Assembly: GCA_041660925.1 (NCBI GenBank)
Contig: JBAZVI010000002.1
Span: forward strand, 19,906-83,905
DNA length: 64,000 nucleotides
Reading direction: 5' to 3'
Source of the DNA: Elusimicrobiota bacterium
Lineage (GTDB): Bacteria; Elusimicrobiota; Elusimicrobia; UBA1565
Numbering within the stretch: position 1 is the stretch's first letter; each line of letters opens with the position of its first letter. Both the position numbers and the translations under genes were made by a program. The notes under the pieces are model-generated. The model ran no database searches, was not told the DNA's origin, and worked only from the letters and a program-made list of their open reading frames with translations. Positions 8,770-62,840 of the stretch are shown here, piece by piece.

Positions 8770-8819
8770 GGCCCAATCATGCCAGTTTTTGGCCGGGATT
8801 TCCCAGCGGGAAATCCCGC

Positions 8820-11413: not shown

Positions 11414-11414
11414 C

Positions 11415-47532: not shown

Positions 47533-48687
47533 TTACAGGAGCATCTCTTCATCCCGATGGCATGGGAGCGTCGAGGGCTTTGATTTCTGCTCATGCAATA
47601 GTGCTAGCTCATGTCCGCGTCGAAGCATCGGCCGCTCAAGCAGATAGAAACTGATTGTGGCGCAGATGAACGCCGCAAGGACGTTCAAAGGGAATGCCTG
47701 TGCGAGACCCAGCGGCCGTCCTGCGAGCTCCGACCCGCTTACGAGGAATATCTGTTGCCAGAGGTAGAGGCCGTAAGAGATTCTCCCTACCCAGCGCAGC
47801 CACGGCAATTCCAGCATGCGACCTGCCAAGGTGTGGGGATTCAGCATCGTGCATGCGACCAGCGCGGCAGCGGATATCCCAAGGAGCATCGTCATGAGCG
47901 GAGGACGAAAGATGACGATCGCAAAGAAGCCGAAGAAAAGGAGTGGGAACTTCGATGGGGAAAGGACGCGTCGGGAGCGTGCTAGCCACGTGGGATACTC
48001 GAATAGAATCGCGGTGAGGCATCCCCAAAGCAGGCCGTCGAACCTCAGATCCGTCCGTGCGGAGCGGTTGAGGCCGGGTATAAACGCATCGACGATCCCG
48101 AATTGCCCATCGAGATTCCTCCAGATCGGGAGAATGAGTACGGCAAGAACGAGAGCGGTCCTTCCATTCCGTATGCCCAGCATCGCGAGACATACAGGCC
48201 AAAGCAAGTAGAACTGTTCTTCGATGGATAGCGACCATATGTGCGCGGTGTACCATCCGTGTCCCGGCGCATATGTGAGCAGGTTGCGAATGTGGAGAAG
48301 ACAAGTCATCCATTCTCCGCGAGAGACATTCACTCCAAAGAGTATCGAGATAACCGCCAAAATGAATAGGAATAACGCGTATGCGGGGATGATTCGGAAT
48401 GCTCGACGGAGATAAAAAGGCAGAAGGGCGAAATCTCCGATTTTCCGTTTATCGCGTATCAGTCTGTTCGTGATGAGAAAACCACTGAGCGTAAAAAAAA
48501 GGTCCACCCCGCAACTGCCGTTGCGCAGGATATTATCGAAAATCCAGGAGAGGACTCTGCCGGGTGGGGTCGGCATGGCTGCGCTGGCATGGGCGACCAA
48601 GACGAGGAGTATAGCGACGCCTCTCCATCCATCCAAAGTCGGGAGATGCCCTTGTAAGAATGAACGCGCATCCTTTTCGCGTTGCAT
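47533..48687 (-). CDS. acyltransferase family 3 membrane protein (OafA/OatA-like O-acyltransferase)
   Basis: Trimmed from ORF 47533..49065 to ATG at 48685-48687 (MQREKDARSFLQGHLPTLDGWRGVAILLVLVAH...); polytopic, acyltransferase-3-like N-terminal motif. Confidence 0.7.
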   Translation of the reverse strand: MQREKDARSFLQGHLPTLDGWRGVAILLVLVAHASAAMPTPPGRVLSWIFDNILRNGSCGVDLFFTLSGFLITNRLIRDKRKIGDFALLPFYLRRAFRIIPAYALFLFILAVISILFGVNVSRGEWMTCLLHIRNLLTYAPGHGWYTAHIWSLSIEEQFYLLWPVCLAMLGIRNGRTALVLAVLILPIWRNLDGQFGIVDAFIPGLNRSARTDLRFDGLLWGCLTAILFEYPTWLARSRRVLSPSKFPLLFFGFFAIVIFRPPLMTMLLGISAAALVACTMLNPHTLAGRMLELPWLRWVGRISYGLYLWQQIFLVSGSELAGRPLGLAQAFPLNVLAAFICATISFYLLERPMLRRGHELALLHEQKSKPSTLPCHRDEEMLL

Positions 48688-48689
48688 CG

Positions 48690-49739
48690 CTAGAAGATGC
48701 GGCTTCGGAATACGAGGATCTGATAGGGGCGCATAAGATGGCGCCCGCCCATCTCGATCAGGAGTTCCGGCAGGTAGCGGCGCGGCTCGAAGAGCGGGAT
48801 CCAGTGCCGATCGAAGAGTGCCTGCGGGCATTCGATGTAGCGGCTGGTGGTATTCGCGATGACGATGTAGTCGCGCAGGCGGTAGCGCCAGGCTTTCGCC
48901 TTGAGGCCAGCGGCGAGGTTTGCAAACGGAGGCGGCTTCGGAGTTCCTTTCTCGAGGATCGGCCGCATAACGGCGAGTTCCCGGACCACCCAGGTCAGGG
49001 CGAACCATAGCGCGGGAGCGTCGGAGAGTACCGCTCCATTCGGCCGGCGGTAGGTGTAGAACCAAAGGCCCTTTGCCCCTTCGAGAATGGCGTGATAACT
49101 CATGAACCGGAGCTCAAGAATGTCAGGGAAGCGGCCGATGGCCGGTTTCCCCGACGGGGGTTTTAGATAATCGCGCCAATCCATCGCTTGCAGAACCGCC
49201 CATACCGGCTTCCCATTTGCTGCGGCGACGGTCATCCTCACCTGTTCACCTAGTGATTCGAGGGGCCGATGGGGCACTGGGTACCAATCCACCATCAGGG
49301 CGTCGCCGCTGGCCGAGTAGCGCTCGGCGGAAGCTCCCCGACCGACGACGAAGGCCGTGGGCGCTCCGTGGGACCAGCCCTTCACTTTACGCTCGAAGGC
49401 GGCGAGCTCTTCCGGAGGGGTCCTGGCGACGTCGGGTTCGTCCTGGAGATACCAGGCGGCGAGTGGGAACCCTTTCGTCGAGACGGTGGAGGTCAGAAGT
49501 TCGTGTGGATGGACGAGAATCCGCATCCGCTCCTTCCGAGCCGCCGATGCAATCGCGTGGAGGGTCGAGGGCTCCCGCGAATAACTCTGGAGCGCGTTGA
49601 AACCTTCCCTGCTCAGTAGCGCGACGGCAGCCGGGTCGTCGACCCCAAATAGGCCGAGCGGGAACCATTGCCCCGGGGCGGACGGTTTTCGAGAGCAGCC
49701 GCAGGTTATGATGAGAAGTCCGATGAAGAGTCTCTTCAC
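48690..49739 (-). CDS. hypothetical lipoprotein/secreted protein
   Basis: From ORF 48690..49826; likely GTG start at 49737-49739 overlapping capD stop (GTGA), giving a signal-like N-terminus KRLFIGLLIITCGC. Confidence 0.55.
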   Translation of the reverse strand: MKRLFIGLLIITCGCSRKPSAPGQWFPLGLFGVDDPAAVALLSREGFNALQSYSREPSTLHAIASAARKERMRILVHPHELLTSTVSTKGFPLAAWYLQDEPDVARTPPEELAAFERKVKGWSHGAPTAFVVGRGASAERYSASGDALMVDWYPVPHRPLESLGEQVRMTVAAANGKPVWAVLQAMDWRDYLKPPSGKPAIGRFPDILELRFMSYHAILEGAKGLWFYTYRRPNGAVLSDAPALWFALTWVVRELAVMRPILEKGTPKPPPFANLAAGLKAKAWRYRLRDYIVIANTTSRYIECPQALFDRHWIPLFEPRRYLPELLIEMGGRHLMRPYQILVFRSRIF

Positions 49740-51598
49740 GGCGACCGGGTGGGTGCTGCGGGCTGGTATGCAGGGACCAAGTCTTTCATCATGTTCCGGA
49801 TGGGCGCAGAGTCCGCAAGCGAGCACAAGCGCTTAAGTTCGCTGATCTGGTCGCGCAAGATCGAGAGGTCGGCCTCTTCGGGGACGGCGGCGAAGATGTC
49901 GGGGTGCCCGGTGTCCATGCGCACATCGTGTGGACGAAACAGCTCCTCGTACATCTTCTCTCCGGGACGCATCCCTGTGAAGACGATCTTGATGTCGCGA
50001 TCGGGTTCGAATCCCGAGAGAAGGATGAGGTTGCGTGCGACGTCCAACACTTTGACGGGTTCGCCCATGTTCAGCACGAAGATCTCCCCGCCTCTGCCCA
50101 GGAAGGCTGCATGAAGGATGAGCTGGACGGCCTCTTCCGTGGTCATGAAGTAGCGGGTCACATCAGGATGCGTGACCGTGACCGGACCTCCCTGGGCGAT
50201 CTGCTCCTTGAAGATGTTGATCGCGCTGCCGGAACTCCCCAAGACGTTGCCGAATCGGACCGATATGAACTTCGTCGAAGACGTCCCGGAGAACGCCCGG
50301 ATGATCATTTCCGCCATGCGCTTCGAGACGCCCATGACACTGGTGGGGCGGACGGCCTTGTCCGTCGATATGAAGAGGAAGCGCTCGACGCCGTGCCGGG
50401 CGCACTTCTCGGCGAGGAGATGGGTGCAGAGGGTGTTGTTCTTGACCGCTTCCTGGGGATTCGATTCCATGAGCGGGACGTGCTTATGCGCGGCGGCATG
50501 GAAGACCAGTTGTGGCCTGTGTGTGACGAAGAGGTTTTCCAGCAGGTCGGCGTCTCCGACGTCGCCCGCGATGGCGAGGCGCGTGACGACGGAGTTCATG
50601 GCGGAAAGCTCCCGGTCGATGTAGAACAAGTCGGTGTTGTGCTTCTCCAGAAGCAGGAGCTTCGAGGGACCGAATCGCATAATCTGCCTAGCGAGCTCCG
50701 AGCCGATGGTCCCCCCCGCGCCGGTCACCAGTACGGTCTTGCCCTGAAGGATGCCTCGGACCGAGGCGAGGTCGGTCTTCACAGACTTGCGAGGGAGGAG
50801 GTCGGCGAGCTCGATCTTGCGCATGCCGCGGGGCTGAGAGTTGTCCTTGCGCAGGGTTTCCTCGAGGGTGGGGACTGTCTTGAACTGGACTTTGAAGCCG
50901 TCTGAGTGGGGGCAGATTTCCATAAGACTCTTGATCAGCGGGCCGCGAGAGTGGTTCACGGCCACGACGATCTCATCGATCTGCTTCTGGGCGATGATCC
51001 TCGGCAGATCTTGACGGCAGCCGAGGATGGCGATTCCATGGATGCTCCGGTGGAGCTTGGCAGGATCGTCATCGATGAAGCCGATGACCCTGTGCGTCTT
51101 GTAGTCTCGGCGTTGCATGTCGCGCACGATGCTTTCCCCCAGGTCTCCGGCGCCGAAGATGAGCACTCTGGGTAGGCTCGAAGTGTCCTGCTGATAGCGC
51201 CATTCGCGCGTGAGCCGGATGGCGAACCGGATCGAGCCGACCAGGATGAGGGTAAGGAGCGGGTCGATGAAGAGCACCGATCTCGGGAATCGCGGGTGCT
51301 GGATGAGCATGAGCGAGGCGATGATGAAGATCTGGCTGGAGCTGACGGCCTTGAACAGGGCGTTCAAGTCCGACATGCTCGCATAGCGCCAGACGCCGGC
51401 GTAGGCTCCGAAGTACGCGAAGGCTCCGGTGCGGAGAAGGACGACGATCCCGATCGTCGACGCGCAGATGCTCAACTCATGCCCGGGCACCTGGAAGTCG
51501 AATCGGAGAAGGAATGCAAGAGCGTAGGAGACGAGGAAAGCCGAGATGTCCGCGAAGAGGACTAAGGGGCGGCTGAATGCAATGAGTCTCTTATACAT
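49736..51598 (-). CDS. membrane-anchored nucleotide-sugar 4,6-dehydratase (CapD/PglF/WbpM family)
   Basis: From ORF 49736..51652, probable ATG at 51596-51598 (MYKRLIAF...); N-terminal TM helices then SDR domain with LVTGAGGTIGSEL. Confidence 0.8.
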   Translation of the reverse strand: MYKRLIAFSRPLVLFADISAFLVSYALAFLLRFDFQVPGHELSICASTIGIVVLLRTGAFAYFGAYAGVWRYASMSDLNALFKAVSSSQIFIIASLMLIQHPRFPRSVLFIDPLLTLILVGSIRFAIRLTREWRYQQDTSSLPRVLIFGAGDLGESIVRDMQRRDYKTHRVIGFIDDDPAKLHRSIHGIAILGCRQDLPRIIAQKQIDEIVVAVNHSRGPLIKSLMEICPHSDGFKVQFKTVPTLEETLRKDNSQPRGMRKIELADLLPRKSVKTDLASVRGILQGKTVLVTGAGGTIGSELARQIMRFGPSKLLLLEKHNTDLFYIDRELSAMNSVVTRLAIAGDVGDADLLENLFVTHRPQLVFHAAAHKHVPLMESNPQEAVKNNTLCTHLLAEKCARHGVERFLFISTDKAVRPTSVMGVSKRMAEMIIRAFSGTSSTKFISVRFGNVLGSSGSAINIFKEQIAQGGPVTVTHPDVTRYFMTTEEAVQLILHAAFLGRGGEIFVLNMGEPVKVLDVARNLILLSGFEPDRDIKIVFTGMRPGEKMYEELFRPHDVRMDTGHPDIFAAVPEEADLSILRDQISELKRLCSLADSAPIRNMMKDLVPAYQPAAPTRSP

Positions 51599-51673
51599 GG
51601 TCGCAGAACTCGAGGTATCTCGGGTGCCGAGCCGTTCGGCTCGGGTGAGCATATCCGGCGGATAGAGGAGTAT

Positions 51674-53575
51674 TCACCGGGCGGTGCTGTCGACGCGGAG
51701 CAGGGTCTTCACTCCAGCCCCGGACTCCGACAGTTCCCATGCGCGCGAGAACTCCGCTAGCGGGAGGGGTTCGGAAAGCATAGATTCCGGGGAGAGTCGT
51801 GCTAGGATCTTCAGGGCCTCCTCGAAGTCTTCCCCGCTGCTTCCAACGGAGCCGATGACGGACTTGTCACTGCCGACGATGGACTCGAAATTGAAGGGGA
51901 CCTCTGCGTAGGGAAAGCCCAGGAGGAGCAGGGTGGCGCCCGCGCGGCTCTTCGATAGCGCCGAGTGCAATGCGCCGACATCTCCTGTCGCCTCGATGAG
52001 GATGTCGAAATCCGCAAGGGCTGCGAGGTCTGTCGATACGGCGATTCCCGCCTCCTTGAGGACGCTTAGGCGTCCTTCGTTGCGGTCGAAGGTCGTCACG
52101 GATTCGCCGCGCAGTGACAGGACTTTCGCGGCGAGATGCCCGATGGGGCCGGCGCCGATGACTGCATGGCGAAGTACTCCACGAGCGCCGTGTGTCGAAG
52201 CATCGAGGCGACGCAGGGCCTTCAAGACAACCGCCGTGGGCTCGCATAGACAGGCCGCTCGAAGCGAAACCTCTGGAGGGATGCGATGGACGAATCGCCC
52301 CGGCACGACGACGTATTCGGAATACCCGCCGTCGCGTCCCATCACACCCACTTCAGCCCTTTGAGAACAGCCAATGGCGTTCCCGCGCTGGCAGGGTCCG
52401 CAATCGCCGCAGCCCTGGATGCACTCAGCGACGACGAGGTCTCCTTCCGCGACGTTCTCGACGCGCGGCCCCGCTGCGACCACGGTGCCGGAGAACTCAT
52501 GCCCAGGGACGATGGGATAACGGGCAAGGCCGGTCCTATAGTATCCGAGGGAGCCGTGGTAGATGTCGAGGTCAGTTCCGCAGACGCCCTCGAAGGCGAC
52601 GCGGATGAGCACGTCTCCGGGGCGGATCTCTGGCAGTTCGATGTCGACGTACGCCGCGTCACGCGGCCCGCGGACGACGACGGCCCGCGAACGACGGTCG
52701 AAGAAAAGGCGCTCGCGCTTGAGGGGGTTGTCCATCGCGGCGCCGTCGAGGACTCCTGCGCAGGTCCCGCGGAGCTTCTCCCAGCGAAAACGAAGGATCT
52801 CCGGGGTCTTGGTGAGGAGTTTCCCTTCTCTCGCTGCCCTGCGAAGGTCGCCCGCAGTACGGCGGGCTTCCTGGACCAACGCGACCGGCAGATCCCGGCG
52901 GTTCAAGACGCCTATCCACTTGGCGGCCTGCCCTTCGCGATAGAATCTGCGACGTACCTGGCTCCAGTTCTCGTCATGGATATGACGAATGTCGGCCTTG
53001 GCGGCGTAGACGACGACGAAGCCTTGCTCCATCCAGTGCTTCGCCCATTCGATGTCCTCGAGCCCCGGCAGGGTCTCGTCGAAGGGGTGTTTCTCCCAGA
53101 GGTCCCGGCGGATCGCCGAGTTCGCGTTGTTGGCGAAGAAGTCCGGAGGTGTCAGGATTCGGTCTGCGACGCCGAACGTGCGCTGGAAGTCGAGCTGCTC
53201 GGAAAACTTCGAGCGATCGTCGCCGGATTGCCGCCCGTAGACCATCGCGGTGCGCCCGTCGCGGAGGGGCTTTATCAGTTCTTCAAGCCAATGCATGCCC
53301 GCGGGAACGGTGTGTGCGGAGACGATGGCGAGGAAGCGCCCCTCGGACGCTTGGATCCCCACGTTGAGGGAGTGCCCGAAGGTGAAGTCGTGACGGGTCA
53401 GGCGAACGAGGCGATGCGTCCGTTCCGAGGCGATTTGCCGGGTGTGGTCGAAGGAGCCGGAATCCACGACGATGATCTCAAAGTCTCTGTAGCTTTGCGC
53501 GGCAAGGCCGTCGAGCAGGACCGGCAGATGCCGCTCTTCGTTGAATGCGCGGATGATGATCGATGTCTCAGGCAT
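51674..53575 (-). CDS. fusion protein: N-terminal family-2 glycosyltransferase domain + C-terminal zinc-dependent alcohol dehydrogenase (MDR) domain
   Basis: 633-aa continuous ORF; GT2-like start (IIIRAFNEE, IIVVDSGS) then MDR-like region (RVAFEGVCGTDL, GHEFSGTV, Rossmann GAGPIGHLA). Confidence 0.7.
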   Translation of the reverse strand: MPETSIIIRAFNEERHLPVLLDGLAAQSYRDFEIIVVDSGSFDHTRQIASERTHRLVRLTRHDFTFGHSLNVGIQASEGRFLAIVSAHTVPAGMHWLEELIKPLRDGRTAMVYGRQSGDDRSKFSEQLDFQRTFGVADRILTPPDFFANNANSAIRRDLWEKHPFDETLPGLEDIEWAKHWMEQGFVVVYAAKADIRHIHDENWSQVRRRFYREGQAAKWIGVLNRRDLPVALVQEARRTAGDLRRAAREGKLLTKTPEILRFRWEKLRGTCAGVLDGAAMDNPLKRERLFFDRRSRAVVVRGPRDAAYVDIELPEIRPGDVLIRVAFEGVCGTDLDIYHGSLGYYRTGLARYPIVPGHEFSGTVVAAGPRVENVAEGDLVVAECIQGCGDCGPCQRGNAIGCSQRAEVGVMGRDGGYSEYVVVPGRFVHRIPPEVSLRAACLCEPTAVVLKALRRLDASTHGARGVLRHAVIGAGPIGHLAAKVLSLRGESVTTFDRNEGRLSVLKEAGIAVSTDLAALADFDILIEATGDVGALHSALSKSRAGATLLLLGFPYAEVPFNFESIVGSDKSVIGSVGSSGEDFEEALKILARLSPESMLSEPLPLAEFSRAWELSESGAGVKTLLRVDSTAR

Positions 53576-54527
53576 CGGTGGGCCCGACGGCGGCCGGAGC
53601 GAGTACGCGGAGGAGGTTCAGGATCGTATTCTCGTGGACCCTTGCCGCGGAGGATGGACTGCTGTTCGCGTTGTGCGGGGAAAGCAGGCAGTTGCTGTGG
53701 CGGCGCAACGGGCTGTCCGCCGGAAGCGGTTCTCGCTCGTAGACATCGAGTGCGGCTCCGGCAAGTCGTCTCTCGTCGAGCGCTTGCGCCAGCGCGGACT
53801 CCACGACGACCGGGCCTCTCGAAGTGTTGATGAGGTACCCCGAAGAGCGCATCCTCTTCAAGGCCGCGGCGTCGATGAGACTGCGGCTGGTCTCGTTGAG
53901 GTCGGGGTGGAGGGAGACGAAGTCCGACTCTTCGAGGAGTCGTTCCCGGTTCACAATCGACATCCCGACGGCGTCCAGATAACCTCTTTCCGGGATGACA
54001 GGGTCGCAGCCGAGGATGCGCATGCCGAATGCCGCCGCGCGGCGGCCTACTGCCCGGCCGATGTTTCCCACCCCGATGATTCCCAAGGTCTTTTCCTTGA
54101 GTGCGAAGAGTTGGGGCTTCTCCCAAAGGCCATTGCGCATATCCTGATCCATGCGGGCGAGACCGCGCGCAAAGAGGAGCATGTATCCAAGGACAGTGTC
54201 TGCGACGGGCTCAGTGAAAGCATCGGGTGTGTTTCTAACGGGGATTCCGCGAGCCGCCGCCGCGACCTTGTCGATCGAATCGATGCCTGTTCCCCATTTC
54301 GAGATGACCTTGAGTCGCGGAGCGGCGTCCAGGACCTTTGCGGTGATCTGGTCGTCTCCGCAGATGATTCCGTCGACGTCCTTGATCAGCTCGAGAAGCT
54401 CTCCTTCCGTCAGGCGCTCGCGGACTCTGGCGATGACAAGCTCGCAACCGGCCTCCTCGAGGCGCCTACGGTAGATGTCGAGGACGGGCATGACGTACGG
54501 CGCGGAGATTAAGACGCGAGACTTCAT
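53568..54527 (-). CDS. D-isomer-specific 2-hydroxyacid dehydrogenase (phosphoglycerate dehydrogenase-like)
   Basis: 319 aa; NAD-binding GIIGVGNIGRAVG and 2-hydroxyacid dehydrogenase-like catalytic region. Confidence 0.8.
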   Translation of the reverse strand: MKSRVLISAPYVMPVLDIYRRRLEEAGCELVIARVRERLTEGELLELIKDVDGIICGDDQITAKVLDAAPRLKVISKWGTGIDSIDKVAAAARGIPVRNTPDAFTEPVADTVLGYMLLFARGLARMDQDMRNGLWEKPQLFALKEKTLGIIGVGNIGRAVGRRAAAFGMRILGCDPVIPERGYLDAVGMSIVNRERLLEESDFVSLHPDLNETSRSLIDAAALKRMRSSGYLINTSRGPVVVESALAQALDERRLAGAALDVYEREPLPADSPLRRHSNCLLSPHNANSSPSSAARVHENTILNLLRVLAPAAVGPTDA

Positions 54528-55330
54528 CGGAATGCCTCTCGACGGTACTGCGCGAAGGCGGGGTCGCTGCGCATCAGTCGTTCCGCTCGACGCAGGTCGG
54601 ACGGCGTGTCAACCGACTGTGTCCGTTCCTTTGTGCGAATCATGCGGACGGGGATCCCGTGTCCCACGAAGCGGAGCATGTCGATGGATTCTGCCTTTTC
54701 GAGGGCGGTCGGCTCGAGTCTTTCGAAAGCAAGGAGCGCATCCCGGCGGAATGGGATGACGCATACCTGCTTGAAGACCCGCAGATCGCGGAAGTTCACG
54801 CGCGCCGTCGTCGGGATGGGCTCCCTGGAGAAGTAGAGGGCGTCCCCCCTCTCGTCGGTCACGACCTTGATCGTGTTGGGGTCTGAGAAGTCGCGCTCGT
54901 CATCGATGGGGGCCATCAGGTTTACGCATTGGACCTTCGGGTCCTCCCGCATGGGGAGGAGCGCTTGCTCCAGCATCCGCGTGGTGATGAGCGGCTCGTC
55001 GCCCTGGACCATAAGGATGATCGTCTCCTTGCGCGACCGCGCTATCTCCGCGACGCGGTCGGTGGCTCGCTGGTGGGAGGGAGAGGTCATCACGGCCTGG
55101 GCACCGAAGGCGGCGGCGGCGCGGGCGATCTCCTTGTCGCAGGTCGCGATGAGGACTCTGGAGATCATCGGACAGCGCCGGACTCTCCTCCATACATGCT
55201 CGATCATCGGCAGGCCGGCGATGCGGGCGAGCGGCTTCCCCGGGAAGCGGGTCGATGCCATCCTCGCGGGGATGACGCAGAGGACCTCCGCATCCGTGCG
55301 GTTCAACTCAGCTCGACGGAGACCTGGCAT
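54524..55330 (-). CDS. sugar-acid cytidylyltransferase (CMP-Kdo / CMP-nonulosonate synthetase family)
   Basis: From ORF 54524..55540, probable ATG at 55328-55330; motif VIPARMASTRFPGKPLA typical of the KdsB/NeuA family. Confidence 0.75.
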   Translation of the reverse strand: MPGLRRAELNRTDAEVLCVIPARMASTRFPGKPLARIAGLPMIEHVWRRVRRCPMISRVLIATCDKEIARAAAAFGAQAVMTSPSHQRATDRVAEIARSRKETIILMVQGDEPLITTRMLEQALLPMREDPKVQCVNLMAPIDDERDFSDPNTIKVVTDERGDALYFSREPIPTTARVNFRDLRVFKQVCVIPFRRDALLAFERLEPTALEKAESIDMLRFVGHGIPVRMIRTKERTQSVDTPSDLRRAERLMRSDPAFAQYRREAFR

Positions 55331-56247
55331 TCGAGTGTGCCTCCCGGGAGAAGTTCCGCGCAAGTGCCGTTCTTGAGCGCCGCGCCCAGATCCTTCGGCA
55401 TGTTCGTGCAAGGTTCGAGGACCACGGTGTAAAGGTCCCGCCAGCCTCCGAAGGTCATGAATAGCCAAGTGAAGGGAAATACGTGAAGAGGAAAGTGCAG
55501 GCGGATGCGGCGTCCCGTACGCGAATCCCTGACTCCGCACCAGCCCGCTGGGAGGTCTCGGACGCAGAGGAAATCGCGGTGCTTATGCTCGGGAGAGGGC
55601 AGCTCTTCGAGGTTTACTCGGCGCCCTTCTGGGCCTGGGGCGAGCGGCCAAGTGAAACCCCCGCCAGAGACGATTCGAGTCCCGAAGCCTTCTTCGATGG
55701 GGAGGACAGTCCCTCCAGGGAGCTCTAGACGATGATGAGGTGTCACCGCGATGGGGAGGTGCTGTTTGAAGAGAAAGCGCAAGGGTTTGTCATCGAGATT
55801 GCGGATCCGGTAGCGGATGTCCATCCGTGCCGCTTCCGGGTCCATGGAGACGGTCTTCTCGCAGTAGGCGGGGACGGAGGCTGTCCTCAGGGTCATCTGA
55901 GCGCAACGCTCTGTCTCCTCGCAATCCCATGCCCGCGACCACCATTCCCCATGATCCGGTAATCTTCGGCCCTGAAACGAGCATTCCGCGTCATTCGGGA
56001 AAAGCTCTTCCCAGCCGCCGGACCAATGGTCGTCGTATCCGGCGCTTTCGTGCGGGCGCTGCAGGCCGACGTGCGGGTTCCGCCAGATCCATTCGGTTCC
56101 CGTGGCCTTGTCGACCAAACTCCAAATCTTCGCGCCGAAATCCGGAAGGATGTCGGCGTGCATTCGGGGGTTTTCAAGGCGAATGACACGGTGAGCGGCG
56201 CTGCCGCAGTGGCCTTTCGTGCGCACCGTCATCTTCCCGTTTGGCAT
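55303..56247 (-). CDS. hypothetical protein
   Basis: From ORF 55303..56355, start uncertain (ATG 56245-56247 or 56230-56232); no family recognised. Confidence 0.5.
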   Translation of the reverse strand: MPNGKMTVRTKGHCGSAAHRVIRLENPRMHADILPDFGAKIWSLVDKATGTEWIWRNPHVGLQRPHESAGYDDHWSGGWEELFPNDAECSFQGRRLPDHGEWWSRAWDCEETERCAQMTLRTASVPAYCEKTVSMDPEAARMDIRYRIRNLDDKPLRFLFKQHLPIAVTPHHRLELPGGTVLPIEEGFGTRIVSGGGFTWPLAPGPEGRRVNLEELPSPEHKHRDFLCVRDLPAGWCGVRDSRTGRRIRLHFPLHVFPFTWLFMTFGGWRDLYTVVLEPCTNMPKDLGAALKNGTCAELLPGGTLECQVSVELS

Positions 56248-56269: not shown

Positions 56270-57298
56270 TCAGCCCTTCGCCGGGCTCTCCGCAGTGCAG
56301 ATCTCGTGATGGAGTGCGACATATGTCGGGGGGCACCAATGAGGGAGCGTGCCATCCCCCCCGCGGACGTCCGTCTCGAACACCGGCGTGGTCTTCCCGA
56401 ATCGCGTTAGAAGCGTGTTCTTGGCGGCGACGTCCTCGAACTTGTCAAGGATGACGAACTTGTAGCCATTGTAATCGTCTGCCTTCTTGAAATCGAGATA
56501 CGCGACCCCATGCGCTTCACAAAGCCTCCTGTACGCGGAGGCGATCTCGACCCGTTTGTCCCGGTAGTATTCACGGAGTTCAGGGCCCGTCATCAGCATG
56601 TGAATCAGGCAGGCAGTCAGTTCATTCGCACGGAGATTCAGTCCGTATGAGAGCGTCATGTCATGCTTGTCGTAGATTAGGAAGCGTCGGACCCAGGAAT
56701 AGACGTCCGCTCGCCGTGTGGAAACGAGGCCTCCCTCTCCCGATGGGAGGATCTTCGTAGCATAGAATGAGAACGCGAGGTCGGCATACGCCGATCCGAG
56801 AACTCCCTCGAGGTAGTGTGCGTGGGCGGCATCCACGATGAGAGGTATTCGGTTCTTCTCGCAGTAGGATTCGATCTCGCGGTATGAGGGTGATAGGAAT
56901 CCTCCGATCACCGAGTAGACGACTACGGCGGCGCGTGGGTCCGGGAGGGCAGCGACCGTCGAGGCAAGAGATTCGGGAGTCATCGCCAGGAAGTCTTTTG
57001 TGGCGGAATCGGCGACGAGGACCTCCATCCCCAACAGCTTCGGGACCGTGTAGAGCGCTCGCATCGTGTTCGATTGGATGATGACGTGAGTCTTCGAGCA
57101 GGCATATTTGTAGTATGCCAACAGGCAGAAAATCGCGGCCCCTCCAGAACAAACGGGGACCGAGTCCTTCCCCGGAAGGAACTCTCGGGAGGATTCCTGA
57201 TAGAAGTGTCCTTCCGCGACCTTGCCTGTCTTAAAAAGCTCCTCGGCCTTGCGCAGGTATGAGGCCACAAGACAATCGGGGAATGAGACGATATTCAT
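56270..57298 (-). CDS. DegT/DnrJ/EryC1/StrS-family PLP-dependent sugar aminotransferase
   Basis: From ORF 56270..57370, ATG at 57296-57298 preceded by GGGAGGA; PLP-lysine region SFYATKILPSGEGG. Confidence 0.8.
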   Translation of the reverse strand: MNIVSFPDCLVASYLRKAEELFKTGKVAEGHFYQESSREFLPGKDSVPVCSGGAAIFCLLAYYKYACSKTHVIIQSNTMRALYTVPKLLGMEVLVADSATKDFLAMTPESLASTVAALPDPRAAVVVYSVIGGFLSPSYREIESYCEKNRIPLIVDAAHAHYLEGVLGSAYADLAFSFYATKILPSGEGGLVSTRRADVYSWVRRFLIYDKHDMTLSYGLNLRANELTACLIHMLMTGPELREYYRDKRVEIASAYRRLCEAHGVAYLDFKKADDYNGYKFVILDKFEDVAAKNTLLTRFGKTTPVFETDVRGGDGTLPHWCPPTYVALHHEICTAESPAKG

Positions 57299-57432
57299 CG
57301 GTCCTCCCGCCTCGCCGGATGCTCCATGCTGTTCGTGAAATCGTACAAAATTGCCTCTTCGATGAGGCAATCCCGTCCGACTCAGTTTGATGCAGCTATA
57401 AGGTAAGAGAGAACGGGCGGCATGCCGTCAAC

Positions 57433-58659
57433 TCACGCGCCGGGTGCGTGGGAGTTCGACGGCATCGAGAGGATACTCGGATGTCCCGATTCAAGACATC
57501 GTCCTGCCAAGGTCTCGCAATACAATGCACCCATCTTCTCGACATATCGGGCCATGCTGAACTTCTCGCTCCAGGTCCGGTACCCGGCTTCCCGCAAGGC
57601 GGCGAGAGAGGCTGACGGCGCGGCGAAGATTCGAAGAAGGCGATCCGCCAGGACAGAGGGATCGTTCGGCGGGATGAGGAACCCGTTGGTCTCGTCCTGG
57701 ATTATTTCCGGGACTCCCCCTACGGCAGTGGCTACGACAAGTTTCTTCAGACACAGCGCCTCGAGGATGCTGTTCGGGATGCCTTCGCTTTCCGATGGGA
57801 GTGCGACGACGTCCGCGGTCTTGAGCGCGGCGGCGACATCCTCGATGTGACCCTTGAAGTGTATCCAATCGCGGACTCCCTCAGCGACGGCCATGCGGCA
57901 GAGAGCGTCGAAGTAGAGGCCTCCCCCGCCGTCCGTGGCGGATTCGTGGGAACCATAAACGACGACCGACAGCGGGGGTCCGCGTCGTCGGATCAATGCC
58001 AGCGCGCGCAGGAGAGTCTCGAAGCCCTTCCGTACGGTGATGCGGCTGACGACCGCTAATATCGGAGGGAGAGGTTCTCCGTCGGCGCGGACGATGTCTG
58101 GCTCCGCCAGAGGAGGACGCCCGTCGTAGATGCACGCGATCTTCGTCGGGGAAATCCTGGAACGCTGGATGAGCTCATCTCGGAGGTATTCGCCGTTCAC
58201 CGCGTAGGCGTCCACATGCGTCTGGGTGAGACGGTCGAGCTGGTGGTATGCCCACAACACGGACGCTGGCCGGTCGGACCAGTCGAGGCTTGTGTGCATG
58301 CGGAAGATATGACGCACCCCCGGGGAACTCCGCCTGACCAAGCGGCAGACGATGCTCTCGCGAAAGGCGTTCGATTGGAGGAGACGGATGCCTTCGCGGC
58401 GGGTGAGTTCGAGGATGCGTGCCGCCGCTGGCCACGGGCGCCGGAACATCAGTTCGGGTATCACATGCACGCCGAGGCCCGTCTCGGTGAACTTCCGGGC
58501 TAGAGGCCCATCCCTTCCCGTCAGGAGGAGTGGGCGACAGTGCAGACGGTCGCGCAGATGGATGGCCCAGCGGTGGACCTGCCCTTCGATTCCTCCCAGC
58601 GAGGAGGCCCGGCGCACCAGCCCAATGGGGCATCCCTCGGGCAGTTCAGATAGAGTCAT
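57433..58659 (-). CDS. glycosyltransferase family 4 (GT-B fold)
   Basis: Trimmed from ORF 57433..59169 to ATG at 58657-58659 (MTLSELPEG...); C-terminal motif LPSESEGIPNSILEAL typical of GT4. Confidence 0.8.
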   Translation of the reverse strand: MTLSELPEGCPIGLVRRASSLGGIEGQVHRWAIHLRDRLHCRPLLLTGRDGPLARKFTETGLGVHVIPELMFRRPWPAAARILELTRREGIRLLQSNAFRESIVCRLVRRSSPGVRHIFRMHTSLDWSDRPASVLWAYHQLDRLTQTHVDAYAVNGEYLRDELIQRSRISPTKIACIYDGRPPLAEPDIVRADGEPLPPILAVVSRITVRKGFETLLRALALIRRRGPPLSVVVYGSHESATDGGGGLYFDALCRMAVAEGVRDWIHFKGHIEDVAAALKTADVVALPSESEGIPNSILEALCLKKLVVATAVGGVPEIIQDETNGFLIPPNDPSVLADRLLRIFAAPSASLAALREAGYRTWSEKFSMARYVEKMGALYCETLAGRCLESGHPSILSMPSNSHAPGA

Positions 58660-59384
58660 GACGATGGCGGACGGATGAATGCAAGATAATGGGTGCACAG
58701 GAACGGCACGCGACTCAAGAGCGCACAGACGGCCGGCGAGTACGGGGCAAGGGCTCGCGTGATGGGCGGGGCCAGGGTGATCGGAATCAGTTCTATAGTG
58801 GAATCGGGGAAGAGGCTGAAGATCTCGGCGCGAGAAATCCCGTGGACATCGCGGTTGAAAGGGTTGTCGATGCGGAAGTCGTACCATACGATCGTCCCAT
58901 TTGGAGCAAGGACGCGGACCATCTCCCGAGCAATTTCGGCCTTTAATGCGGAGTCCGCGATCGAGGTGAACATCGTGCTTTGGAGTACGATGTCGAATGC
59001 TGCGTCGGGGAGTCCAGTCCGGGCGGCGTTCCTGCAGAGGATGCGGACGCTCCCGCCGGTGCGGTAGAGGGCCTCGCGGGCGCGCGCTTCGATGAGTTCG
59101 ATGCCGATGAGATTCTCCGGCCGCACGCCCCATCGAATGAACTCGAGCAGCCAGGTTCCTTCGCCGCACCCGAGCTCGAGAACGTGCATCCCGGGGAATT
59201 CGGGCAGGCCGATGCGCTGCAACGCATGCAGGACGGCTTCGTTTCGTTCACGGGTCATGAGGATGTGCGCCGGATTGTCGTCGGAATAGCGGGCGTGTAC
59301 ATCGGCTTTCTCTCGGCGCTTATACGACGCGCGTATCCGCGCTTCTTCGTCCTCGAAGTCGCGGGAAGGCTCTCGGATCATCAT
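58656..59384 (-). CDS. class I SAM-dependent methyltransferase
   Basis: 242 aa; SAM-binding motif VLELGCGEG; stop overlaps GT4 start (ATGA). Confidence 0.75.
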   Translation of the reverse strand: MMIREPSRDFEDEEARIRASYKRREKADVHARYSDDNPAHILMTRERNEAVLHALQRIGLPEFPGMHVLELGCGEGTWLLEFIRWGVRPENLIGIELIEARAREALYRTGGSVRILCRNAARTGLPDAAFDIVLQSTMFTSIADSALKAEIAREMVRVLAPNGTIVWYDFRIDNPFNRDVHGISRAEIFSLFPDSTIELIPITLAPPITRALAPYSPAVCALLSRVPFLCTHYLAFIRPPSS

Positions 59385-62792: not shown

Positions 62793-62840
62793 TCAGTAAT
62801 GTCCCGAAATCATTTTGAAGGGAAGTCTTGTCGCCGGATG

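What the first reader, a model, noticed from the sequence alone, without database searches (positions are those of the whole stretch)
51674..53575. Single ORF fusing a GT2 glycosyltransferase domain to a zinc-dependent alcohol dehydrogenase domain
A continuous 633-codon frame joins an N-terminal GT-A fold (IIVVDSGS) to an MDR dehydrogenase (GHEFSGTV, Rossmann GAGPIGHLA). This is an uncommon architecture that would couple sugar transfer with oxidation or reduction of a sugar or polyol substrate. It could also be a gene fusion created by loss of a stop codon.
Basis: partly seen in the sequence, partly recalled or inferred. Interest (0 to 1): 0.55.

Follow-up and report, generated by a model that had tools for sequence, protein, structure and literature searches.

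The report
Conserved glycosyltransferase–dehydrogenase fusion in sugar-acid module
The ORF is a real, widely conserved two-domain enzyme (an unusual family-2 glycosyltransferase joined to a zinc alcohol dehydrogenase) that ends a small mobile gene module which probably makes, CMP-activates and attaches a modified Kdo-like sugar acid to a cell-surface polysaccharide; nobody appears to have characterised it.

Summary
Window 51674-53575 (minus strand) is one 633-codon ORF with a GT2 domain (aa 5-160) and a complete zinc-MDR dehydrogenase (aa 295-633). It is not a stop-loss or frameshift artefact: more than 120 full-length relatives (53-64% identity) share the architecture, and it is intact in 12 species genomes from many phyla.

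The GT half belongs to a distinct GT2 subfamily. The DXD motif is replaced by invariant S-[A/G]-H, with an E-D and an H-x-H motif. The same domain is fused elsewhere to KdsB-type cytidylyltransferases, lactamase-fold, cyclase, methyltransferase and SAF domains. The MDR half has all zinc and NAD residues.

The gene ends a translationally coupled cassette: mutarotase-like protein, KpsU/KdsB-like cytidylyltransferase with an altered sugar-domain signature, D-2-hydroxyacid dehydrogenase, fusion. The cytidylyltransferase and the 2-hydroxyacid dehydrogenase each occur in 16 of 20 loci.

By analogy with ElaABC and EpaAB, I propose a module that tailors, CMP-activates and transfers a Kdo-like ulosonic acid. 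That mechanism is inferred, not shown. No characterised member was found. Verdict: an uncharacterised new variant of known kinds, of moderate interest.

The parts
51674..53575 (-). GT2::MDR fusion gene, 633 codons plus stop
   Evidence: ORF; Pfam domains; identical to NCBI MFA6028787.1; more than 120 full-length homologs
52967..53575 (-). GT-A (GT2-type) glycosyltransferase domain, aa 1-203
53312..53320 (-). S86-A87-H88, occupying the position of the DXD metal motif
   Evidence: Aligns with DCD of chondroitin synthase and DSD of GalT1. Invariant in 27 fusions. Among 150 family representatives, S in 145 and H in 148.
53054..53059 (-). E173-D174, candidate catalytic-base motif (LPGLEDIEW)
   Evidence: Invariant; E and D each present in 143 of 150 representatives. 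The catalytic-base assignment rests on general GT2 knowledge.
52976..52984 (-). H198-I-H200 motif, candidate extra metal or phosphate ligands
   Evidence: Invariant; 134 and 132 of 150 representatives. The role is inferred.
52694..52966 (-). Conserved three-helix linker, aa 204-294
   Evidence: Helices 204-221, 226-249 and 253-277 in both AF2 models. Conserved residues R210, E214, F263, R264, G270, G274, F292. Also present in stand-alone GT homologs of about 320 aa.
51677..52693 (-). Zinc-dependent MDR dehydrogenase domain, aa 295-633
   Evidence: ADH_N and ADH_zinc_N. PDB sequence hits: threonine 3-dehydrogenase 2dq4 at 111 bits, RspB, galactitol-1-P DH, sorbitol DH. Foldseek TM 0.80-0.85 normalised to target. 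Invariant C332, H359, E360, E445 and D497.
52367..52411 (-). Structural-zinc lobe C389-x2-C392-x2-C395-x7-C403
   Evidence: All four Cys invariant; the pattern is the MDR structural zinc site (family knowledge)
52139..52156 (-). Rossmann G474-A-G476-P-I-G479 dinucleotide-binding motif
   Evidence: Invariant glycines. D497 at the end of the next strand suggests NAD rather than NADP (family knowledge).
53568..54527 (-). D-isomer-specific 2-hydroxyacid dehydrogenase; stop overlaps the fusion's start
   Evidence: Pfam 2-Hacid_dh_C 186.6 bits. NCBIfam best hits PGDH and glyoxylate reductase, below equivalog cutoffs. Adjacent to the fusion in 16 of 20 loci. Overlap shown.
54524..55306 (-). KpsU/KdsB-like cytidylyltransferase (CTP_transf_3); probable TTG start at 55306 in a TTGA overlap with the upstream stop; ATGA overlap with the downstream start
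   Evidence: Pfam 158 bits. NCBIfam PRK13368 299 bits (cutoff 255) and TIGR00466 kdsB 158.5 (cutoff 155.2). Best PDB hit 1GQ9, a 3-deoxy-manno-octulosonate cytidylyltransferase, 170 bits. Cassette-specific sugar-domain signature. Junctions.
55303..56247 (-). DUF5107/DUF4432-like protein, probably galactose-mutarotase-like; start at ATG 56247 or 56232
   Evidence: Pfam DUF5107 30.7 bits (cutoff 24.4) and sub-threshold DUF4432. A profile of 6 orthologs hits only a DUF5107 structure (5cd6, E 0.0014) and aldose 1-epimerases (E 0.16, weak). Next to the fusion or cassette in 10 of 20 loci.
56270..57370 (-). DegT-family aminotransferase flanking the cassette upstream (context, not core)
   Evidence: Pfam 70.7 bits; not consistently linked in other loci
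49736..51652 (-). PglF/CapD-like membrane-anchored NDP-sugar 4,6-dehydratase flanking the cassette downstream (context)
   Evidence: Pfam Polysacc_synt_2 355.6 bits; a homolog about 8 kb downstream of the fusion in L003 only

Best explanation
Shown: this is a genuine, anciently fused bifunctional enzyme. The N-terminal half is a GT2-type GT-A glycosyltransferase domain of a distinct subfamily: DXD is replaced by S-[A/G]-H, and it carries an E-D motif and an H-x-H motif. A conserved three-helix linker joins it to a fully equipped zinc/NAD-type MDR dehydrogenase of the threonine/polyol-dehydrogenase type. It is the last gene of a translationally coupled cassette found in many phyla: mutarotase-like protein, then a KpsU/KdsB-like cytidylyltransferase with an altered sugar-domain signature, then a D-2-hydroxyacid dehydrogenase, then GT::MDR. 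The cassette lies in a lower-GC surface-polysaccharide island.

Inferred mechanism: the module supplies one special residue to the glycan, a modified Kdo-like 2-ulosonic acid. The two NAD-dependent dehydrogenases remodel the sugar acid by oxidising and re-reducing, or simply oxidising, a hydroxyl, most plausibly on the polyol-like side chain. The mutarotase-like protein equilibrates anomers of the free sugar. The specialised cytidylyltransferase makes the CMP-sugar. The fused GT domain installs it on the growing polysaccharide or glycosylates it. Fusion of the GT to the dehydrogenase would couple tailoring to transfer.
For: Real and conserved: more than 120 full-length homologs; 12 intact species-genome loci in diverse phyla plus one probably degraded copy; conserved linker; confident models, pLDDT 84 and 88.

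Cassette: tblastn and Pfam neighbourhoods give the cytidylyltransferase in 16 of 20 loci, 2-Hacid_dh in 16 of 20, and the DUF5107/4432-like gene in 10 of 20, in the same order and strand. Start/stop overlaps are ATGCCTGA, ATGA and TTGA.

Rosetta-stone links: the same GT subfamily is fused to CTP_transf_3 on either side (P0168, P0146, P0177), and to Lactamase_B_2, Cyclase, methyltransferase and SAF domains.

Independent recurrence: three Rhodobacterales plasmids have a stand-alone GT (38-42% identity), then a NeuA-family cytidylyltransferase, then 2-Hacid_dh (34% identity), next to Maf-like genes. In Thalassovita this lies beside KpsF-KdsB-KdsA.

Kdo-type link: the cytidylyltransferase passes the KdsB subfamily and equivalog cutoffs, and its best solved relative is 1GQ9. 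All 11 cassette copies nevertheless share altered motifs, KQVCVIPF and AESIDMLR, where three bona fide KdsB/KpsU sequences have HxGxYAY and ExLEQLR.

No other known Kdo-transferase family appears in the Pfam-annotated loci. L026 and L027 carry a second cytidylyltransferase, in L026 beside a NeuB pathway, so the KdsB-like enzyme serves a different sugar.

Precedents for 'one cytidylyltransferase plus two dehydrogenases remodel a ulosonic acid': ElaABC (PMC13656337) and EpaA/EpaB (PMC12053666).
Against: No biochemical data exist for any member. No GT2-fold enzyme is known to use a CMP-sugar donor (my knowledge), and the His-rich motif may simply be an alternative metal site for an ordinary NDP-sugar. 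Three loci (L007, L010, L011) have the fusion with the mutarotase-like gene, an ATP-grasp, a deacetylase and a FemAB-like gene but no cytidylyltransferase or 2-Hacid_dh within 10 kb, so the fusion can work without them. The window itself encodes no Kdo or NulO synthase. The dehydrogenase families here (MDR, 2-Hacid_dh) are not homologous to ElaA/ElaC (Gfo/Idh/MocA, SDR), so that analogy is functional only. The MDR substrate cannot be read from sequence: the best equivalog scores are far below cutoffs (IolM 157.6 vs 450; Tdh 138.8 vs 380). The mutarotase assignment rests on weak hits.
Confidence: 0.45

Rival explanations
1. Ordinary NDP-sugar transferase with a built-in tailoring dehydrogenase. 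The GT domain adds a common sugar from a UDP, GDP or dTDP donor. The MDR domain oxidises or reduces that sugar or a polyol substituent, for example to create a keto group for the neighbouring DegT aminotransferase. The KdsB-like and 2-Hacid_dh genes are merely frequent neighbours serving another residue of the same glycan.
For: The GT fold and residues are typical of NDP-sugar-using GT2 enzymes. The fusion occurs without the cytidylyltransferase in L007, L010 and L011. A DegT gene lies directly upstream of the cassette in the window and in L026. GalE follows the trio in two Rhodobacterales plasmids, Thalassovita and Sulfitobacter. H88, H198 and H200 could form a His-type Mn site like the DxH+H of GT27 (my knowledge; weak ppGalNAcT hit, E 0.3).
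Against: It does not explain why this GT subfamily is repeatedly fused to CTP_transf_3 in both orientations. It does not explain why the trio recurs with a non-orthologous cytidylyltransferase in Rhodobacterales, nor the tight translational coupling.
Confidence: 0.25
2. De novo ulosonic-acid pathway in which the GT-A domain is not the final transferase but an NDP-sugar hydrolase (a PseG-like role) releasing a free aldose. The fused MDR then oxidises the aldose at C1, helped by the mutarotase-like protein. A lactonase opens the lactone. The 2-Hacid_dh oxidises C2 of the aldonate to a 2-keto acid. The cytidylyltransferase activates it, and another enzyme transfers it.
For: Most fusion partners of the GT subfamily are enzymes that would act on free sugars or lactones (MDR, Lactamase_B_2, Cyclase). 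L018 has a separate Cyclase gene at the head of the cassette. SDR plus SMP-30/gluconolactonase genes lie beside the trio in Thalassovita and Sulfitobacter. Maf-like candidate transferases are present there. The Pfam Glu_dehyd_C hit on the MDR half scores 52 bits. 2-ketogluconate reductases belong to the 2-Hacid_dh family (my knowledge).
Against: No GT2-fold NDP-sugar hydrolase is known. The MDR half is closer to threonine/polyol dehydrogenases (111 bits) than to archaeal glucose dehydrogenase (63 bits) and keeps the Glu445 zinc ligand typical of that group. There is no lactonase in the window cassette. Metagenomic loci lack an obvious alternative ulosonic-acid transferase.
Confidence: 0.15
3. 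Artefact or recent accident: a sequencing or assembly frameshift, or a lineage-specific lost stop codon, joining two separate genes.
For: One related locus (L013) matches only piecewise and may be degraded.
Against: Same architecture in more than 120 independent clusters and 12 species genomes. The alignment across the junction is colinear and gap-free with a conserved linker. Stand-alone GT homologs carry the same helical tail. The alternative frames are full of stops.
Confidence: 0.01
4. Bacteriochlorophyll enzyme BchC, as the JGI name '2-desacetyl-2-hydroxyethyl bacteriochlorophyllide A dehydrogenase' says, or a glycosyl-glycerate compatible-solute synthase (GT plus phosphoglycerate-dehydrogenase-like partner).
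Confidence: 0.02

Closest known systems
GT2-family inverting GT-A glycosyltransferases (SpsA, K4CP chondroitin polymerase, GalT1, TarP, PcManGT)
   Different: The DXD motif is replaced by invariant S-[A/G]-H. There is an extra invariant H-x-H and a conserved three-helix C-terminal extension. The domain is fused to a dehydrogenase. Donor and acceptor are unknown.
Zinc-dependent MDR dehydrogenases of the threonine/polyol group (Tdh, sorbitol DH, galactitol-1-P DH, RspB, HpsP, IolM)
   Same: Catalytic Cys/His/Glu(+Glu) zinc site, structural Cys4 zinc, Rossmann GxGxxG and an acidic NAD determinant, all present. 24-29% identity and TM 0.8-0.85.
   Different: Scores lie far below every equivalog cutoff. 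It is never free-standing in this family but sits C-terminal to a GT. The context is polysaccharide biosynthesis, not catabolism.
ElaABC (CMP-legionaminic acid 8-epimerase module) and EpaA/EpaB (pseudaminic acid to 8-epi-pseudaminic acid) of Acinetobacter
   Same: A compact, horizontally mobile module of one CTP_transf_3 cytidylyltransferase plus two NAD(P) oxidoreductases of different families. The module remodels a ulosonic acid destined for a surface polysaccharide. EpaA is itself a cytidylyltransferase-reductase fusion.
   Different: The oxidoreductases there are Gfo/Idh/MocA plus SDR, or aldo-keto reductase plus SDR. Here they are 2-Hacid_dh plus MDR. The cytidylyltransferase here is KdsB/KpsU-like rather than NeuA/LegF-like. 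A GT domain and a mutarotase-like protein are part of this module. The resemblance is functional, not homologous, and is untested.
KpsU (K-CKS), the capsule-specific CMP-Kdo synthetase of E. coli group 2 capsule loci (identification of 1GQ9 as KpsU is from my knowledge; the PDB table names it only as 3-deoxy-manno-octulosonate cytidylyltransferase)
   Same: Closest solved relative of the cassette's cytidylyltransferase (1GQ9, 170 bits). Both are extra KdsB paralogs placed in a surface-polysaccharide locus.
   Different: Cassette enzymes share altered motifs in the sugar-binding domain. They are coupled to two dehydrogenases and a GT2 domain rather than to KpsC/KpsS Kdo transferases.

Membership tests
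GT2 / Pfam Glycos_transf_2 (GT-A inverting glycosyltransferases) | GT-A Rossmann-like fold and profile match | tested here: met
GT2 / Pfam Glycos_transf_2 (GT-A inverting glycosyltransferases) | DXD divalent-metal / diphosphate-binding motif | tested here: not met
   S86-A87-H88 aligns with DCD (K4CP) and DSD (GalT1). The replacement is family-wide. It is therefore filed as a divergent GT2-like subfamily rather than a canonical member.
GT2 / Pfam Glycos_transf_2 (GT-A inverting glycosyltransferases) | Acidic catalytic base C-terminal to the nucleotide-binding half | tested here: inconclusive
   Invariant E173-D174 in LPGLEDIEW is in the expected region, but no residue-level structural superposition was available
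GT2 / Pfam Glycos_transf_2 (GT-A inverting glycosyltransferases) | Glycosyl transfer from a nucleotide sugar | not testable with these tools
   Requires enzyme assays
Zinc-dependent medium-chain dehydrogenase/reductase (MDR) superfamily | ADH_N (GroES-like) plus ADH_zinc_N (Rossmann) domains | tested here: met
   98 and 49.6 bits, both above cutoffs; Foldseek E 1e-24, TM 0.8-0.85 to target
Zinc-dependent medium-chain dehydrogenase/reductase (MDR) superfamily | Catalytic zinc ligands (Cys, His, Glu) and structural zinc Cys4 | tested here: met
   C332, H359, E360, E445 and C389, C392, C395, C403 invariant in 27 sequences; aligned with Tdh 2dq4
Zinc-dependent medium-chain dehydrogenase/reductase (MDR) superfamily | Assignment to a specific characterised enzyme (Tdh, IolM, GatD, BchC and others) | tested here: not met
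   All NCBIfam equivalog scores are far below cutoffs: IolM 157.6/450, Tdh 138.8/380, GatD 99.7/550, BchC 70.7/291
ElaABC/EpaAB-like ulosonic-acid tailoring modules | Dedicated CTP_transf_3 cytidylyltransferase adjacent to two NAD(P) oxidoreductases | tested here: met
   Window genes 54524-55306, 53568-54527 and the MDR half of 51674-53575; conserved in 16 of 20 loci
ElaABC/EpaAB-like ulosonic-acid tailoring modules | Homology of the oxidoreductases to ElaA (Gfo/Idh/MocA) and ElaC/EpaB (SDR) | tested here: not met
   The partners here are 2-Hacid_dh and MDR. It works like that kind of module at most; it is not a member.
ElaABC/EpaAB-like ulosonic-acid tailoring modules | Ulosonic-acid synthase (NeuB/KdsA) in the same locus | tested here: not met
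   No NeuB, KdsA or KpsF homolog anywhere in the 64-kb window; present near the module in L026 (NeuB) and near the trio in Thalassovita (KdsA)
ElaABC/EpaAB-like ulosonic-acid tailoring modules | Epimerisation or oxidation of a CMP-linked or free ulosonic acid | not testable with these tools
   Needs LC-MS/NMR of enzyme products
KdsB/KpsU CMP-Kdo synthetases (for the adjacent partner gene) | Profile score above curated cutoffs and CTP/Mg residues | tested here: met
   PRK13368 299.4/255; TIGR00466 158.5/155.2; R10, K19, D98 and D225 equivalents conserved
KdsB/KpsU CMP-Kdo synthetases (for the adjacent partner gene) | Conserved sugar-domain motifs HxGxYAY and ExLEQLR | tested here: not met
   All 11 cassette-linked enzymes have KQVC(V/I)(I/M)P(F/Y) and AES(I/V)DM(L/M)R instead. 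That these motifs contact Kdo is from my memory of KdsB structures and was not verified here.

The most novel reading that the evidence does not exclude
The S-x-H/H-x-H GT-A domain is the first GT2-fold transferase to use a CMP-activated 2-ulosonic acid donor. The cassette makes a so far undescribed Kdo derivative, such as a side-chain epimer or oxidised form. The last tailoring dehydrogenase is physically fused to the transferase so that the labile CMP-sugar is handed on directly. This would be a new, phylogenetically widespread class of Kdo-like transferase distinct from GT30, GT99 and GT107.
Probability: 0.2. Interest if true: 0.7.

Novelty: new variant of a known kind. Interest (0 to 1): 0.45.

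Why it matters
Rare acidic sugars (Kdo and nonulosonic acids and their epimers) shape phage receptors, immune recognition and surface charge. The enzymes that tailor and install them are known from only a few pathogens. This module is widespread in uncultured phyla: Elusimicrobiota, Nitrospira, Acidobacteriota, Desulfobacterales, Gemmatimonadota and Dehalococcoidales. It is annotated only as 'alcohol dehydrogenase catalytic domain-containing protein', or wrongly as BchC. Defining its chemistry would correct many annotations. It would define a DXD-less GT2 subfamily with about 380 clusters at 50% identity. It might also reveal a new donor class for GT-A enzymes and a new sugar. Cultured carriers of the unfused version (Thalassovita, Sulfitobacter, Gemmobacter) make it experimentally tractable.

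Tried and rejected
1. Frameshift or stop-loss artefact: rejected on conservation.
2. BchC annotation: rejected.
3. Five literature searches for a characterised GT2-MDR fusion or cassette found no description. They yielded only the ElaABC and EpaAB precedents. A cyanophage paper mentioning kdsB and GT2 was irrelevant.
4. Phage collection search with the GT half: no match.
5. Plasmid search with the full protein: no full-length fusion on any plasmid, only separate halves. The Sinorhizobium MDR homolog sits in a sugar-catabolic ABC-transporter context and is uninformative.
6. Foldseek of the full model against PDB returned only MDR hits, so the GT half had to be modelled separately.
8. I tried to identify the mutarotase-like partner by single-sequence PDB search (no hit) and by profile search (only weak hits).
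9. I tested whether the recurrent 610-650-aa unknown proteins next to the fusion in other loci match the window's 595-aa ORF: no detectable similarity.
10. I looked for Kdo-contact residues in PMC3149649 and they are not listed there. The meaning of the altered cytidylyltransferase motifs therefore remains inferred.
11. Compatible-solute (glycosyl-glycerate) synthesis was considered and rejected on context.
Full report
**1. Observation**

Window 51674-53575 holds one ORF of 633 codons on the minus strand. Pfam places Glycos_transf_2 at aa 5-160 (74.3 bits), ADH_N at aa 319-433 (98 bits) and ADH_zinc_N at aa 477-592 (49.6 bits). All three are well above their gathering cutoffs. The other two frames of the coding strand contain 14 and 11 stops. 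The protein is identical to NCBI MFA6028787.1, 'alcohol dehydrogenase catalytic domain-containing protein' from an Elusimicrobiota MAG, on a 556-kb contig.

**2. Artefact or real fusion**

A search of 5.8 billion protein clusters returned over 120 full-length relatives. They share 53-64% identity, 99-100% coverage and lengths of 617-676 aa, all with the same domain pair.

A scan of one genome per GTDB species found the fusion intact in 12 species. These include Nitrospira, Elusimicrobia, Desulfobacterales, Acidobacteria, Gemmatimonadales, Longimicrobiales, Rhodospirillaceae, Dehalococcoidales and a deltaproteobacterium. A thirteenth locus (L013) matches only piecewise and may be degraded.

A 27-sequence alignment is colinear across the junction. 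The 90-residue linker is itself conserved, with R210, E214, F263, R264, G270, G274 and F292 invariant. The stop-loss or frameshift alternative is therefore refuted at the family level.

**3. Anatomy of the GT half**

AlphaFold models are confident: full length pLDDT 84 and pTM 0.73, aa 1-295 pLDDT 88 and pTM 0.85. They show a GT-A domain (aa 1-203), three long helices (204-277) and a short low-confidence connector (280-293).

The DXD motif is absent. In pairwise alignments, S86-A87-H88 sits opposite DCD of K4CP and DSD of GalT1.

An exhaustive phmmer search with aa 1-295 against 1.84 billion representatives gave 379 clusters at E<=1e-30. In the top 150:
- S86 is kept in 145 and H88 in 148.
- D38 is kept in 147, and E173-D174 in 143.
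- H198 is kept in 134, H200 in 132 and R210 in 128.

These counts hold whatever the protein length. This is a distinct GT2-like subfamily with a His-rich site in place of DXD. Whether that site binds a metal was not tested.

**4. Anatomy of the MDR half**

The following are invariant:
- the catalytic zinc ligands C332, H359, E360 and E445;
- the structural zinc cysteines C389, C392, C395 and C403;
- the Rossmann motif G474xG476xxG479;
- the acidic residue D497, which suggests NAD over NADP from family knowledge.

The nearest solved relatives are threonine 3-dehydrogenase (111 bits), RspB, HpsP, galactitol-1-phosphate dehydrogenase and sorbitol dehydrogenase. Every NCBIfam equivalog score is far below its cutoff, including BchC at 70.7 against 291. 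The JGI name carried by many homologs is therefore a misannotation, and the substrate is unknown.

**5. Other architectures of the GT subfamily**

Pfam scans of representatives show the same domain in several forms:
- stand-alone, about 270-330 aa including the helical tail;
- fused to CTP_transf_3, either N-terminally (P0168) or C-terminally (P0146, P0177);
- fused to Lactamase_B_2 (P0188, P0190, P0215);
- fused to the 'putative cyclase' hydrolase domain (P0148, P0153, P0195);
- fused to SAM methyltransferases (P0225, P0266);
- fused to a SAF domain (P0256).

The repeated fusion to a cytidylyltransferase is a Rosetta-stone link to a CMP-sugar step.

**6. Gene context**

In the window the fusion is the last gene of a tightly packed minus-strand run:
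- DegT aminotransferase (56270-57370);
- DUF5107/DUF4432-like protein (55303-56247);
- CTP_transf_3 cytidylyltransferase (54524-55306);
- 2-hydroxyacid dehydrogenase (53568-54527);
- the fusion, followed 21 nt later by a PglF-like dehydratase (49736-51652), then an unknown protein and an Acyl_transf_3 acyltransferase.

The junctions are TTGA, ATGA and ATGCCTGA overlaps, consistent with translational coupling. Upstream lie a GT4 gene, three methyltransferases and a radical SAM/SPASM gene. GC falls from about 0.72 to about 0.61 at roughly 45 kb, consistent with an acquired glycan island.

Across 20 loci with usable flanks:
- The cytidylyltransferase is present in 16 and the 2-hydroxyacid dehydrogenase in 16.
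- The DUF5107/4432-like gene is present in 10.
- Where present they are on the same strand and in the same order.
- L018 has a separate Cyclase gene at the head of the cassette.
- L020, L021 and L028 have an FkbM methyltransferase.
- L026 has a complete NeuB-type nonulosonic acid pathway with its own second cytidylyltransferase directly upstream.
- L027 also has two cytidylyltransferases.

Three loci (L007, L010, L011) show a different context without a cytidylyltransferase: FemAB-like GNAT (seen in L010 and L011), polysaccharide deacetylase (L010 and L011), ATP-grasp, DUF5107-like, fusion, GT4-like. In L007 a TylF-type methyltransferase occupies the deacetylase position.

**7. Independent recurrence in cultured bacteria**

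On plasmids of Thalassovita gelatinovora, Gemmobacter fulvus and Sulfitobacter sp. D7, a stand-alone homolog of the GT half is followed by two partner genes. The homolog is about 320 aa, has an SGH motif, shares 38-42% identity and includes the helical tail. It is followed by an 'acylneuraminate cytidylyltransferase family protein' and a 2-Hacid_dh that is 33-34% identical to the window's in the two plasmids compared. GalE follows in Thalassovita and Sulfitobacter. Maf-type ('MptE-like') genes are nearby in all three.

SDR and SMP-30 lactonase genes are also nearby in Thalassovita and Sulfitobacter, and Thalassovita carries KpsF-KdsB-KdsA in the same cluster. The cytidylyltransferase there is not detectably similar to the window's, so the same functional slot is filled by a different branch of the superfamily.

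More distant GT relatives that lack the tail (Gloeothece, Lactiplantibacillus) lie in ordinary EPS loci without a cytidylyltransferase.

**8. The partner cytidylyltransferase**

It exceeds the curated cutoffs of a KdsB subfamily model (299 against 255) and, narrowly, of the kdsB equivalog (158.5 against 155.2). Its best solved relative is 1GQ9, deposited as a 3-deoxy-manno-octulosonate cytidylyltransferase (170 bits). From my knowledge this entry is the capsule-specific E. coli KpsU. The CTP and Mg residues are conserved.

All 11 cassette-linked copies share motifs that differ from three bona fide KdsB/KpsU sequences:

| Cassette-linked copies | KdsB/KpsU |
|---|---|
| ATCD | ATDD |
| H(Q/E)RA(T/S)DR | HxSGTDR |
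| KQVC(V/I)(I/M)P(F/Y) | (K/R/H)H(V/I)G(I/V)YAY |
| AES(I/V)DM(L/M)R | E(S/G)LEQLR |

The last two lie in the C-terminal domain, which PMC3149649 assigns to Kdo binding. This suggests a Kdo-like but not identical sugar. The residue-level contacts are from my memory and were not verified here.

The window has no NeuB, KdsA or KpsF, so the precursor must come from elsewhere in the genome.

**9. The mutarotase-like partner**

Pfam gives DUF5107 at 30.7 bits and a sub-threshold DUF4432 hit. A profile of six orthologs hits only a DUF5107 structure (E 0.0014) and aldose 1-epimerases (E 0.16). Invariant H94, H158 and E273 (in the motif VLEPC) resemble the His/His/Glu of galactose mutarotase. That comparison is from memory and untested, so the assignment is tentative.

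**10. Mechanism**

The following are shown:
- a conserved bifunctional protein with two apparently competent active sites;
- a conserved, translationally coupled cassette with a KdsB/KpsU-like cytidylyltransferase and a second dehydrogenase;
- a recurrent evolutionary link between this GT subfamily and cytidylyltransferases.

The following is inferred. The cassette is a self-contained unit that tailors, activates and transfers a Kdo-like 2-ulosonic acid. The closest documented analogues are two Acinetobacter systems. In ElaABC, a CTP-transferase works with a Gfo/Idh/MocA oxidase and an SDR reductase to epimerise C8 of CMP-legionaminic acid, and the module moves horizontally as a discrete unit (PMC13656337). 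In EpaA/EpaB, a cytidylyltransferase-aldo-keto-reductase fusion and an SDR convert Pse to 8ePse (PMC12053666).

A polyol-type MDR is a reasonable catalyst for the glycerol-like side chain of Kdo. No known Kdo-transferase family (GT30, GT99, GT107) appears in the annotated loci, which leaves the fused GT domain as the only constant transferase candidate.

My confidence that this is a real glycan-biosynthetic bifunctional enzyme is about 0.9. My confidence in the ulosonic-acid mechanism as stated is about 0.45.

**11. Rivals**

- (a) An ordinary NDP-sugar transferase with a built-in tailoring dehydrogenase, with the cytidylyltransferase merely a neighbour (0.25). The cytidylyltransferase-less loci and the canonical GT2 fold favour this. 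The Rosetta-stone fusions and the Rhodobacterales trio count against it.
- (b) A de novo aldose to aldonate to 2-keto-aldonate pathway, with the GT-A domain acting as an NDP-sugar hydrolase (0.15). The lactonase-like fusion partners, the SDR/SMP-30 neighbours and the mutarotase-like gene favour this. The lack of precedent and the Tdh/polyol-like character of the MDR count against it.
- (c) An artefact (0.01).
- (d) BchC or a compatible-solute synthase (0.02).

**12. Novelty and verdict**

Both domain superfamilies are well known, and GT-tailoring fusions are not rare in principle. This family has nevertheless no characterised member in the literature I could search. It lacks the defining DXD motif of its GT family and sits in a previously undescribed conserved cassette. 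I rate it a new variant of a known kind, with interest 0.45.

The most novel reading still open is a GT2-fold transferase that uses a CMP-ulosonic acid donor to install a new Kdo derivative. I give that a probability of about 0.2, and it would deserve an interest of about 0.7.

Noticed in passing
window 1-64000, break near 45000: GC content drops from about 0.69-0.78 over 1-45 kb to about 0.56-0.65 over 45-64 kb, where all the polysaccharide genes lie. This suggests the glycan island was acquired horizontally or is under different compositional constraints.
   Followed up: no
window 54524-55306 (-) and L001, L004, L005, L012, L018, L020, L021, L026, L027, L029: The cassette-linked KdsB/KpsU-like cytidylyltransferases form a group with their own invariant motifs (ATCD, KQVCVIPF, AESIDMLR) that replace motifs conserved in three genuine KdsB/KpsU sequences. 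This may be an unrecognised substrate-specificity class annotated everywhere as CMP-Kdo synthetase.
   Followed up: partly
window 55303-56247 (-): A DUF5107/DUF4432-like protein with invariant His/His/Glu reminiscent of galactose mutarotase travels with the fusion in half of the loci, even where the cytidylyltransferase is absent. A dedicated mutarotase in a polysaccharide operon would be unusual.
   Followed up: partly
L020:6344-8182, L021:18293-20206, L027:1880-3781 and 11935-13851, L028:9914-11848, L029:9917-11857: Proteins of 610-650 aa with no Pfam match recur next to or near the fusion in other genomes. Several are distantly related to one another (L028 and L029 are 43% identical); L027:1880-3781 showed no detectable similarity to the others. 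The window's own 595-aa Pfam-less ORF (59381-61168, minus strand) showed no detectable similarity to them.
   Followed up: partly
window 57433-63905 (-): Upstream of the cassette lie a GT4 glycosyltransferase, three SAM methyltransferases (58656-59384, 60742-61902, FkbM-type 61827-62792) and a radical SAM/SPASM enzyme (62841-63905). FkbM methyltransferases and radical SAM genes (SPASM or B12-binding) recur in the related loci, pointing to a heavily methylated sugar.
   Followed up: no
L007, L010, L011 (about 5000-13500 in each): Alternative conserved neighbourhood of the fusion: FemAB-like GNAT and polysaccharide deacetylase (both in L010 and L011; L007 has a TylF methyltransferase instead), ATP-grasp ligase, DUF5107-like, fusion, GT4-like. 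This suggests amide-linked decoration of an amino sugar and shows the fusion can act without the cytidylyltransferase.
   Followed up: partly
L023 (Thalassovita pAge77), L024 (Gemmobacter p5), L030 (Sulfitobacter p4SUD7): Rhodobacterales plasmids carry very large 'MptE-like' (Maf-type) proteins, up to 1579 aa, next to the GT-cytidylyltransferase-2-Hacid_dh trio. In Thalassovita a full KpsF-KdsB-KdsA set is present too. This may be a plasmid-borne ulosonic-acid glycan system in cultured, tractable strains.
   Followed up: no
homologs P0009, P0015, P0019 and many others: JGI names many members '2-desacetyl-2-hydroxyethyl bacteriochlorophyllide A dehydrogenase' (BchC). The BchC model scores 70.7 bits against a cutoff of 291, so this is a propagated misannotation.
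   Followed up: yes
L013 (Acidobacteriota MAG, 8225-11777): The cassette genes and the fusion match only in pieces (cytidylyltransferase aa 76-183, 2-Hacid_dh aa 54-126, fusion in split segments). The copy may be degraded, or the long-read assembly may be frameshifted.
   Followed up: no
window 47533-49826 (-): The Acyl_transf_3 ORF (47533-49065) has a long, probably spurious N-terminal extension that overlaps a 378-aa ORF (48690-49826) with no Pfam match. The true gene boundaries downstream of the PglF-like gene are unclear.
   Followed up: no
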